Position numbers and translations under genes: made by a program. Below, piece by piece: positions 15,537-15,694 of a stretch of 64,000 bases of DNA. Positions within the stretch are counted from its first letter, which is position 1. Every line of letters starts with the position of its first letter. Origin of the DNA: Escherichia coli (GTDB lineage: Bacteria > Pseudomonadota > Gammaproteobacteria > Enterobacterales > Enterobacteriaceae); NCBI RefSeq assembly GCF_036507355.1, contig NZ_AP027877.1. One strand, 5' to 3'. Below the pieces are notes generated by a model. The model did not search any database. It was not told the origin of the DNA and worked only from the letters and a program-made list of their open reading frames with translations.

Positions 15537-15611
15537 GTAAGTTACTCGTCTTACAGGCGGTGGCTCGATCTTAGCGATGTGTGTAAGGCTGCGCAAATTT
15601 CTCTATTAATT

Positions 15612-15646
15612 GGCTGATCGGACTTGTTCGGCGTACAAGTGTACGC
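15612..15646 (+). promoter_or_regulatory. FadR site (ggctgatcggacttgtt) and FabR palindrome (gcgtacaagtgtacgc) in the fabB promoter
   Basis: Match to the FadR consensus and to a perfect 16-bp palindrome 50-80 bp upstream of fabB. Confidence 0.6.
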
Positions 15647-15694
15647 TATTGTGCATTCGAAACTTACTCTATGTGCGACTTACAGAGGTATTGA

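What the first reader, a model, noticed from the sequence alone, without database searches (positions are those of the whole stretch)
15600..15660. Adjacent FadR and FabR operator-like sequences upstream of fabB
ggctgatcggacttgtt (FadR-like, 15612-15628) is immediately followed by the perfect 16-bp palindrome gcgtacaagtgtacgc (FabR-like, 15631-15646), 50-80 bp upstream of the fabB start. This is the expected dual activator/repressor control of unsaturated fatty acid synthesis.
Basis: partly seen in the sequence, partly recalled or inferred. Interest (0 to 1): 0.2.

Follow-up and report, generated by a model that had tools for sequence, protein, structure and literature searches.

The report
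Known FadR/FabR operators of fabB
This is the textbook control region of the E. coli fabB gene, where the activator FadR and the repressor FabR bind side by side to tune unsaturated fatty acid synthesis; it is real and strongly conserved, but already described and tested in the literature.

Summary
The window is E. coli chromosome (mnmC / fabB / yfcJ / flk). One detail is wrong. The palindrome is not perfect. It has 7-bp arms around a non-symmetric AG centre, so 14 of 16 positions are self-complementary.

The stretch matches the published 56-bp K-12 fabB gel-shift probe at every base except 15610, which lies outside both sites. That probe is bound by FadR in vitro and marks these same FadR and FabR sites. 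A 36-nt block (15614-15649) recurs in the K-12 fabA promoter. It is about 93% conserved across 78 distinct upstream sequences, nearly all Enterobacterales, against about 50% in the flanks, with a fixed 2-bp gap. The 41-bp stretch 15612-15652 has no mismatch within the aligned part of the match in 5425 of 5426 complete E. coli genomes.

With the published transcription start (37 bp upstream of the ATG), FadR covers -46 to -30, over a weak -35 (TTGTTC). FabR fills the spacer up to the -10 (TATTGT).

Side observations: an IS621-family insertion next to mnmC and a likely divergent mnmC promoter.

The parts
15612..15628 (+). FadR operator (17 bp, GGCTGATCGGACTTGTT). It lies at -46..-30 from the published transcription start and overlaps the -35 hexamer.
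   Evidence: Sequence read. It matches the K-12 fabA FadR site AACTGATCGGACTTGTT at 15 of 17 positions and is marked as the FadR site in the published gel-shift probes. The 15-mer CTGATCGGACTTGTT is unchanged in 66 of 80 related fabB loci. Mean column identity is 0.93.
15624..15629 (+). Inferred weak -35 hexamer TTGTTC (3 of 6 to TTGACA), 17 bp upstream of the -10.
   Evidence: Position inferred from the published transcription start. Columns are 97-100% conserved. The hexamer is retained even in Rosenbergiella, Schmidhempelia and Gilliamella, which have lost the FadR-specific left part.
15630..15647 (+). FabR operator (18 bp as published, GGCGTACAAGTGTACGCT). The arms are 15631-15637 and 15640-15646. 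It lies at -28..-11 and fills the -35/-10 spacer.
   Evidence: Searches give the sequence and arms. The published palindrome is marked in the probe. It is unique in the window. Compare fabA AGCGTACACGTGTTAGCT and trhA AGCTAACAGGTGTTCACT. Mean column identity is 0.93. The central dinucleotide is free to vary, and the arms change symmetrically in some species (GCTTACA..TGTAAGC).
15647..15652 (+). Inferred -10 hexamer TATTGT.
   Evidence: It lies 6 to 11 bp upstream of the published start. Column conservation is 100/100/50/31/79/100, the TAnnnT pattern typical of -10 elements. No consensus promoter passes the strict scan, as expected for a promoter that depends on an activator.
15658..15658 (+). 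[quoted passage not shown]
   Evidence: RACE mapping in PMC7083825, stated there to agree with Campbell & Cronan 2001. Mapped to window coordinates.
15583..15597 (+). Published CpxR box GTAAGgctgcGCAAA (-112..-98 from the ATG), a third regulator site of this promoter.
   Evidence: PMC7083825 reports a gel shift, a DNase I footprint at -119..-94 and box-substitution mutants. The sequence is present in the window. Only the second half is conserved across genera.
15695..16915 (+). fabB coding sequence (beta-ketoacyl-ACP synthase I, 406 aa), the regulated gene.
   Evidence: ORF. RefSeq annotation under 100%-identical matches. K-12 b2323.
13530..15536 (-). mnmC, the divergent neighbour. The GTG start at 15536 follows the K-12 annotation. 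The shared intergenic region is 15537-15694.
   Evidence: in K-12 the mnmC start lies 159 bp from the fabB start.

Best explanation
This is the composite operator of the E. coli fabB promoter. FadR is a GntR-family regulator that is active when long-chain acyl-CoA is absent. It binds the 17-bp site at -46..-30, over a weak -35 hexamer (TTGTTC), and activates transcription. FabR is a TetR-family repressor. It binds the imperfect palindrome 2 bp downstream, which fills the -35/-10 spacer up to the -10 (TATTGT), and so blocks or weakens RNA polymerase binding. Exogenous long-chain fatty acids release FadR as their acyl-CoA esters, and unsaturated acyl thioesters strengthen FabR binding. Both effects lower fabB expression and set the ratio of unsaturated to saturated fatty acids. 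Both regulators are encoded elsewhere in the genome and act in trans.

Shown in published experiments on this sequence: FadR binding in vitro, FadR and FabR effects on expression in vivo, and the transcription start. Shown here: sequence identity, the paralogous block in fabA, the conservation footprint and the geometry. Inferred: the exact -35 and -10 hexamers and steric occlusion as the way FabR represses.
For: (1) Identity: the region matches fabB/mnmC loci in 5425 of 5426 complete E. coli genomes. It differs from K-12 by one base outside the sites, at 15610.
(2) Published experiments on this sequence: FadR shifts the 56-bp fabB probe, and the FadR site and FabR palindrome are marked in it (PMC4537474; PMC4259882). 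fabB-lacZ expression is 2 to 2.5-fold lower in a fadR mutant. A fabB fusion is upregulated in a fabR deletion strain, and oleate promotes FabR repression (PMC9017321). FabR ChIP and upregulation of fabB in a Salmonella fabR mutant are reported in PMC4804515.
(3) Paralogue: a 36-nt block, CTGATCGGACTTGTTC-R-GCGTACA-M-GTGT-WM-GCTAT, is shared with the K-12 fabA promoter. It is unique in the window, with 0 matches in 100 shuffles.
(4) Footprint: in 78 distinct fabB upstream sequences, mean identity to the window is 0.93 for both sites, against 0.52 upstream and 0.48 in the 5' UTR. That is close to the 0.95 of the first 30 coding bases. In every locus that keeps a recognisable FadR core next to the FabR site the gap is 2 bp, except Edwardsiella with 3.
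(5) Dimer-like variation: the central 2 bp vary freely (AG, AC, TC, GG). Arm position 3 (G to T) and its mirror position 14 (C to A) change together in L042, L047, L057 and L062.
(6) Geometry: the published start at -37 from the ATG places FadR at -46..-30 and FabR at -28..-11.
(7) Lineages that lost the FadR half keep TTGTTC plus the FabR site. In the two Orbales genera among them (Schmidhempelia, Gilliamella) the -10 reads TATAAT, consistent with independence from the activator.
(8) fadR and fabR are present in 5422 and 5424 of 5426 E. coli genomes.
Against: Nothing contradicts this reading. The caveats are as follows. The match to a generic FadR consensus is only at chance level in the window. 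A 7+2+7 inverted repeat is not rare in itself. No binding experiment was or could be done here on the window's own allele, which carries T instead of A at 15610, 2 bp outside the FadR site. The primary papers (Campbell & Cronan 2001; Zhang et al. 2002; Zhu et al. 2009; Feng & Cronan 2011; McCue et al. 2001) were not available in the library. FabR in vitro binding and the ligand details therefore rest on secondary citations and my own knowledge. The regulator genes are not in the window.
Confidence: 0.96

Rival explanations
1. The conserved block is only core promoter sequence (-35, spacer, -10) for RNA polymerase, and no dedicated regulators bind it.
For: TTGTTC and TATTGT lie inside or next to the block, and TTGTTC persists where the FadR half is lost. 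The consensus-level FadR match is at chance.
Against: Spacer sequences of sigma-70 promoters are not normally conserved at 99-100% across genera, nor as a palindrome with symmetric arm changes. The same 36-nt block sits at fabA. Published FadR gel shifts and fadR/fabR mutant effects exist for this promoter.
Confidence: 0.02
2. The palindrome acts as an RNA or DNA hairpin (an attenuator or terminator), or serves the divergent mnmC gene rather than fabB.
For: It is an inverted repeat in a shared divergent intergenic region.
Against: The arms are separated by only 2 nt, too short for a hairpin loop. The element lies upstream of the published fabB start and upstream of the likely mnmC promoter, so neither gene would transcribe it. 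No terminator-like site is found. The same palindrome type sits at fabA and trhA, which have no mnmC neighbour.
Confidence: 0.01
3. The composite element is under an additional constraint beyond FadR and FabR binding separately. Candidates are obligatory FadR-FabR-RNA polymerase coupling or a further unknown factor. That would explain why a transcription-factor site is nearly invariant across the order.
For: The 15-mer is identical in 66 of 80 loci, and the gap is 2 bp in all loci that keep both sites except Edwardsiella with 3. This is far more uniform than the known fad-regulon FadR sites, which differ considerably from one another (probe sequences). From my own knowledge, Feng & Cronan 2011 reported that flanking or -35 sequences affect FabR binding; PMC4804515 alludes to this.
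Against: Three overlapping functions in 36 bp (FadR site, -35 and FabR flank) may be enough to explain the invariance without any new factor. Nothing here tests cooperativity.
Confidence: 0.15

Closest known systems
E. coli K-12 fabB promoter (FadR site plus FabR palindrome; Campbell & Cronan 2001; Zhang, Marrakchi & Rock 2002; probes in PMC4537474 and PMC4259882)
   Same: It is the same locus. The sequence is identical from 15611 to the ATG and across both sites, with the same flanking genes mnmC and fabB.
   Different: There is a single A to T difference at 15610, 2 bp upstream of the 17-bp FadR site, in a poorly conserved column (51%). The window's strain also carries an IS621-family insertion beyond mnmC, which is unrelated to the promoter.
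E. coli fabA promoter composite operator
   Same: It has the same architecture: AACTGATCGGACTTGTT, a 2-bp gap, then (A)GCGTACACGTGTTAGC(T), then TAT. 32 of 36 positions are identical to fabB. FadR activates and FabR represses.
   Different: The right arm of the fabA palindrome is degenerate (TGTTAGC against TGTACGC). fabA has additional transcription starts (S1, S2, S3). The flanks are unrelated.
trhA (yqfA) FabR box
   Same: It shares the core ACAnnTGT and the outer GC...CT: AGCTAACAGGTGTTCACT. FabR-dependent repression was shown by box mutation (PMC9017321).
   Different: There is no adjacent FadR site, and the arms are more degenerate.
fabA and fabB promoters of Shewanella and Vibrio
   Same: Shewanella fabA carries the same composite: GCTGATCGGAGTTGTT T AGCTTACACGTGTTCGCT (probe).
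   Different: Their fabB lacks a FadR site ('fad regulon contraction', PMC4537474). Correspondingly, the non-Enterobacterales loci found here (Alkalimonas, Gilliamella, Schmidhempelia) lack the FadR half.

Membership tests
FadR operator (fad/fab regulon, E. coli) | A 17-bp site resembling the known FadR sites (core CTGGT/CTGAT ... GA ... TGTT) | tested here: met
   15 of 17 positions are identical to the fabA FadR site, and the site is identical to the published K-12 fabB site. The match to a generic consensus alone is weak: 3 mismatches in 15, at chance level in the window.
FadR operator (fad/fab regulon, E. coli) | [quoted passage not shown] | not testable with these tools
   Published gel shifts with the 56-bp K-12 probe are positive (PMC4537474 Fig. 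3B; PMC4259882 Fig. 3D). The probe differs from the window at one base outside the site.
FadR operator (fad/fab regulon, E. coli) | Position compatible with activation (around -40, overlapping a weak -35) rather than repression | tested here: met
   The site lies at -46..-30 from the published start. The -35 TTGTTC matches consensus at 3 of 6, and no consensus promoter passes the scan.
FadR operator (fad/fab regulon, E. coli) | Cognate regulator gene present in the organism | tested here: inconclusive
   fadR is not in the 64-kb window. It is present in 5422 of 5426 complete E. coli genomes. The window's own genome cannot be inspected.
FabR operator (TetR-family repressor of fabA, fabB and trhA) | Inverted repeat with core ACAnnTGT inside an approximately 18-bp AGCGTACAnnTGTACGCT-like site | tested here: met
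   GGCGTACAAGTGTACGCT at 15630-15647, with 7-bp perfect arms. It matches the core motif given in PMC4804515 and aligns with the fabA and trhA boxes.
FabR operator (TetR-family repressor of fabA, fabB and trhA) | Position that overlaps the core promoter, consistent with repression | tested here: met
   The site lies at -28..-11, from the -35 edge to the first base of the -10.
FabR operator (TetR-family repressor of fabA, fabB and trhA) | Direct FabR binding and FabR-dependent repression | not testable with these tools
   Published: fabB is upregulated in a fabR deletion strain. ChIP-chip and ChIP-qPCR of FabR at Salmonella fabB.
FabR operator (TetR-family repressor of fabA, fabB and trhA) | Evolutionary conservation as a phylogenetic footprint (how the site was originally predicted, McCue et al. 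2001) | tested here: met
   Mean column identity is 0.93 across 78 distinct upstream sequences, with a variable centre and symmetric arm changes. The site is retained outside Enterobacterales, in Gilliamella and Schmidhempelia.

The most novel reading that the evidence does not exclude
The near-total invariance of the 36-bp composite could reflect an undescribed coupling. The FadR 15-mer is identical in 66 of 80 loci, and the gap to the FabR site is 2 bp in all loci that keep both sites except one. Possible causes are obligatory joint FadR-FabR-RNA polymerase geometry or an extra factor reading the junction, rather than two independent operators. Separately, the conserved GCAAATTT block at 15593-15600 may be the -35 region of an unannotated divergent mnmC promoter. 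It overlaps the published CpxR box, which would link CpxR binding to mnmC as well as fabB.
Probability: 0.12. Interest if true: 0.3.

Novelty: already known. Interest (0 to 1): 0.06.

Why it matters
It matters little as a discovery. This is the long-established regulatory region through which E. coli balances unsaturated and saturated fatty acids in its membrane. The check is still useful. It also shows, with 78 distinct upstream sequences and 5426 E. coli genomes, how strongly the composite operator is conserved. The pattern of loss, with the FadR half missing in Rosenbergiella, Orbales and Alkalimonas and both sites missing in two insect endosymbionts, is a modest comparative addition to the published 'fad regulon contraction' idea.

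Tried and rejected
(1) Primary papers were not held in the library: Feng & Cronan 2011 (PMID 21276098, PMC4072462), Campbell & Cronan 2001 (PMID 11566998, PMC99677), Zhu et al. 2009 (PMC2787350), McCue et al. 2001 (PMC30389) and Feng & Cronan 2009 (PMC2785586). I relied on later open papers that reproduce the probe sequences, the transcription start and the regulatory phenotypes.

(2) The strict sigma-70 scan of 15450-15750 found no promoter. I did not take this as evidence against a promoter, because the published start and the TAnnnT conservation define a weak promoter that depends on an activator.

(3) The generic FadR consensus search and the count of generic 7+2+7 inverted repeats were both at chance level, so I did not use them as evidence.

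(4) The inverted repeat ACTTGTTCG/CGTACAAGT (15622-15630 and 15632-15640) bridges the two sites. I rejected it as meaningful because it depends on the central AG of the FabR site, which varies among species (15639 is only 58% conserved) and differs in fabA.

(5) I rejected a hairpin or attenuator reading of the palindrome, because the loop would be 2 nt and the element lies upstream of the start.

(6) I looked for fadR and fabR in the window and found neither (one search was a script error).

Full report
**What is in the sequence**

One search shows ggctgatcggacttgtt at 15612-15628 and gcgtacaagtgtacgc at 15631-15646. They are separated by 2 bp (cg). The first ATG of a 406-aa ORF is at 15695.

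A 601-bp query around the site matches 5425 of 5426 complete E. coli genomes. Every listed match lies over genes annotated as fabB (beta-ketoacyl-ACP synthase I) and mnmC. The K-12 MG1655 record has the same arrangement: yfcJ, fabB, then divergent mnmC. By the K-12 annotation, mnmC starts with GTG at window 15536 on the minus strand, so the shared intergenic region is 15537-15694.

The sites lie at -83..-67 and -64..-49 from the ATG.

One statement is wrong. The 16-mer is not a perfect palindrome. It has 7-bp perfectly complementary arms (GCGTACA/TGTACGC) around a non-symmetric AG centre, so 14 of 16 positions are self-complementary.

**Is it more than chance?**

Taken alone, neither feature stands out.
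- A FadR-type consensus with up to 3 mismatches hits 3 times in the window against 1.35 expected.
- Perfect 7+2+7 inverted repeats occur 7 times against about 4.2 in shuffles.

The specific content is what counts.
- The FabR-type pattern GCGTACANNTGTACGC with no mismatch is unique in the window.
- The K-12 fabA promoter, more than 1.4 Mb away on the K-12 chromosome, carries the same 36-nt composite: CTGATCGGACTTGTTC[A/G]GCGTACA[C/A]GTGT[T/A][A/C]GCTAT.
- That composite is unique in the window and never appears in 100 shuffles.

**Conservation**

I used the FabB protein to fetch 80 related loci from one genome per species. Most are Enterobacterales, with a few Orbales and one Alkalimonas.
- The 15-mer CTGATCGGACTTGTT is unchanged in 66 of the 80 loci.
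- The FabR pattern has 0 to 2 arm mismatches in 78 of the 80 loci.
- The gap between the two sites is 2 bp in every locus that keeps a recognisable FadR core next to the FabR site, except Edwardsiella, where it is 3.

In a MAFFT alignment of 78 distinct upstream sequences, mean identity to the window was as follows:

| Segment | Mean identity |
|---|---|
| FadR 17-mer | 0.93 |
| FabR 16-mer | 0.93 |
| Stretch just upstream | 0.52 |
| 5' UTR | 0.48 |
| First 30 coding bases | 0.95 |

Variation inside the FabR site is what a dimer-bound palindrome predicts. The two central bases vary freely (AG, AC, TC, GG). Arm position 3 (G to T) and its mirror position 14 (C to A) change together in several genera, giving GCTTACA..TGTAAGC.

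Within E. coli, the 41-bp stretch 15612-15652 shows no mismatch within the aligned part of the match in 5425 of 5426 genomes. The surrounding 601 bp is below 99% identical in about 2000 of them. This within-species result is only weakly informative because E. coli divergence is low. The cross-species footprint is the strong evidence.

**What the literature says about this exact sequence**

Two open papers list the 56-bp K-12 fabB gel-shift probe TCTATTAAATGGCTGATCGGACTTGTTCGGCGTACAAGTGTACGCTATTGTGCATTC. They mark the FadR site and the FabR palindrome GGCGTACAAGTGTACGCT in it. They show that wild-type FadR shifts the probe and a W60G mutant does not (PMC4537474; PMC4259882). The window differs from this probe only at 15610 (T for A), which lies 2 bp outside the FadR site in a poorly conserved column.

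Further published results:
- fabB-lacZ expression drops 2 to 2.5-fold in a fadR mutant.
- A fabB fusion is derepressed in a fabR deletion strain, and oleate promotes FabR repression (PMC9017321).
- FabR occupies the fabB promoter in vivo in Salmonella. A core motif ACAnnTGTnnnnT is proposed there (PMC4804515).
[quoted passage not shown] A CpxR box GTAAGgctgcGCAAA at -112..-98 has a footprint at -119..-94 (PMC7083825). That box is at window 15583-15597.

The primary papers were not available in the library. The ligand details for FabR (unsaturated acyl-ACP or acyl-CoA enhancing binding) rest on secondary citations and on my own knowledge of Zhu et al. 2009 and Feng & Cronan 2011.

**How it works**

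With the start at about 15658, the layout is as follows.
- The FadR site spans -46..-30 and overlaps an inferred weak -35, TTGTTC (15624-15629).
- The 18-bp FabR site spans -28..-11 and fills the 17-bp spacer.
- The inferred -10 is TATTGT (15647-15652).

The -10 assignment is supported by its conservation pattern of 100/100/50/31/79/100, which is TAnnnT. A strict consensus scan finds no promoter here. That fits a promoter needing an activator.

FadR at about -40 therefore helps RNA polymerase on a poor -35. FabR in the spacer competes with or distorts polymerase binding. Steric occlusion as the mechanism of repression is my inference from the geometry.

A comparative observation fits this. Rosenbergiella, Schmidhempelia and Gilliamella have lost the FadR-specific left part (CTGATCGGAC) but keep TTGTTC plus the FabR site. 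In the two Orbales genera among them (Schmidhempelia and Gilliamella) the -10 reads TATAAT. Two insect endosymbionts have lost both sites. Loss of the FadR site at fabB outside the enterics matches the published 'fad regulon contraction' in Shewanella and Vibrio.

The regulators act in trans. Neither fadR nor fabR is in the window. They occur in 5422 and 5424 of 5426 complete E. coli genomes.

**Rivals**

- A pure core-promoter reading cannot explain a palindromic spacer that is 99-100% conserved, nor the same block at fabA. It is also contradicted by the published gel shifts and mutant phenotypes.
- A hairpin reading fails because the loop would be 2 nt and the element lies upstream of the start. 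No terminator-like site is present.
- The only open idea is that the extreme invariance of the composite reflects coupling between FadR, FabR and RNA polymerase beyond two independent sites. Overlap of three functions in 36 bp may already explain the invariance.

**Comparison and novelty**

This is the K-12 fabB promoter itself. Its closest relative is the fabA composite operator. The trhA (yqfA) FabR box AGCTAACAGGTGTTCACT shares the core but has no FadR site beside it.

All sequence-level defining features of FadR and FabR operators that could be tested here were met. Protein binding could not be tested, but it is published for FadR on this sequence. The feature is already known and interest is low.

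**Seen in passing**

- An IS621-family (IS110-like) element lies at about 12142-13521, between yfcL and mnmC. Only 2 of 5426 genomes have an insertion at this position.
- A conserved block GCAAATTT lies at 15593-15600. Together with a TAnnnT-patterned TAAGAT at 15573..15568 on the minus strand, it looks like a divergent mnmC promoter overlapping the second half of the CpxR box.
- The first half of the published CpxR box is poorly conserved across genera.

Noticed in passing
window 12142-13521 (transposase ORF 12308..13288, minus strand): An IS110-like element of the IS621 family lies between yfcL and mnmC. Its 326-aa transposase carries the Pfam domains DEDD_Tnp_IS110 and Transposase_20. K-12 has no insertion here, and only 2 of 5426 complete E. 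coli genomes carry an IS at this same position (97-98% identity). Copies elsewhere are common, with up to 29 matching places per genome. From my own knowledge, IS621 is the family of bridge-RNA-guided recombinases.
   Followed up: partly
window 15568-15600, minus strand: This looks like a divergent mnmC promoter. The -35 would be TTGCGC (15596..15591), followed by a 17-bp spacer and a -10 of TAAGAT (15573..15568). Cross-species conservation of the -10 is 95/95/76/46/83/95, a TAnnnT pattern. The block GCAAATTT (15593-15600) is 86-99% conserved in 78 distinct upstream sequences. This is inference only; no mnmC transcription start was available.
   Followed up: partly
window 15583-15597: The published CpxR box of fabB (GTAAGgctgcGCAAA) is present. 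Across genera only its second half (GCAAA) is conserved (91-99%). The first half (GTAAG) is 17-36% conserved, so the tandem box may be specific to Escherichia and close relatives, or the conserved half may serve another function (see the mnmC promoter item).
   Followed up: partly
loci L044, L054, L068, L081, L082, L073, L074 (fabB upstream regions): Rosenbergiella (2 species), Schmidhempelia and Gilliamella keep a well-conserved FabR palindrome but lack the FadR core. Alkalimonas also lacks the FadR core and shows only a degenerate FabR-like match (2 mismatches, at -113 from the ATG). Schmidhempelia and Gilliamella have a consensus TATAAT -10. Two insect endosymbionts (Candidatus Gullanella endobia and the secondary endosymbiont of Heteropsylla cubana) lack both sites. 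Whether fadR and fabR are also missing in these genomes was not tested.
   Followed up: no
window 15610: There is a single-base difference from K-12 (T instead of A) 2 bp upstream of the FadR site. It creates the 6-bp palindrome ATTAAT at 15605-15610. The column is only 51% conserved across species, so an effect is unlikely.
   Followed up: no
window 15622-15640: A second inverted repeat, ACTTGTTCG/CGTACAAGT (8 of 9 complementary), bridges the right end of the FadR site and the left arm and centre of the FabR site. It depends on the variable central AG and is absent from fabA and from many species, so it is probably fortuitous.
   Followed up: yes
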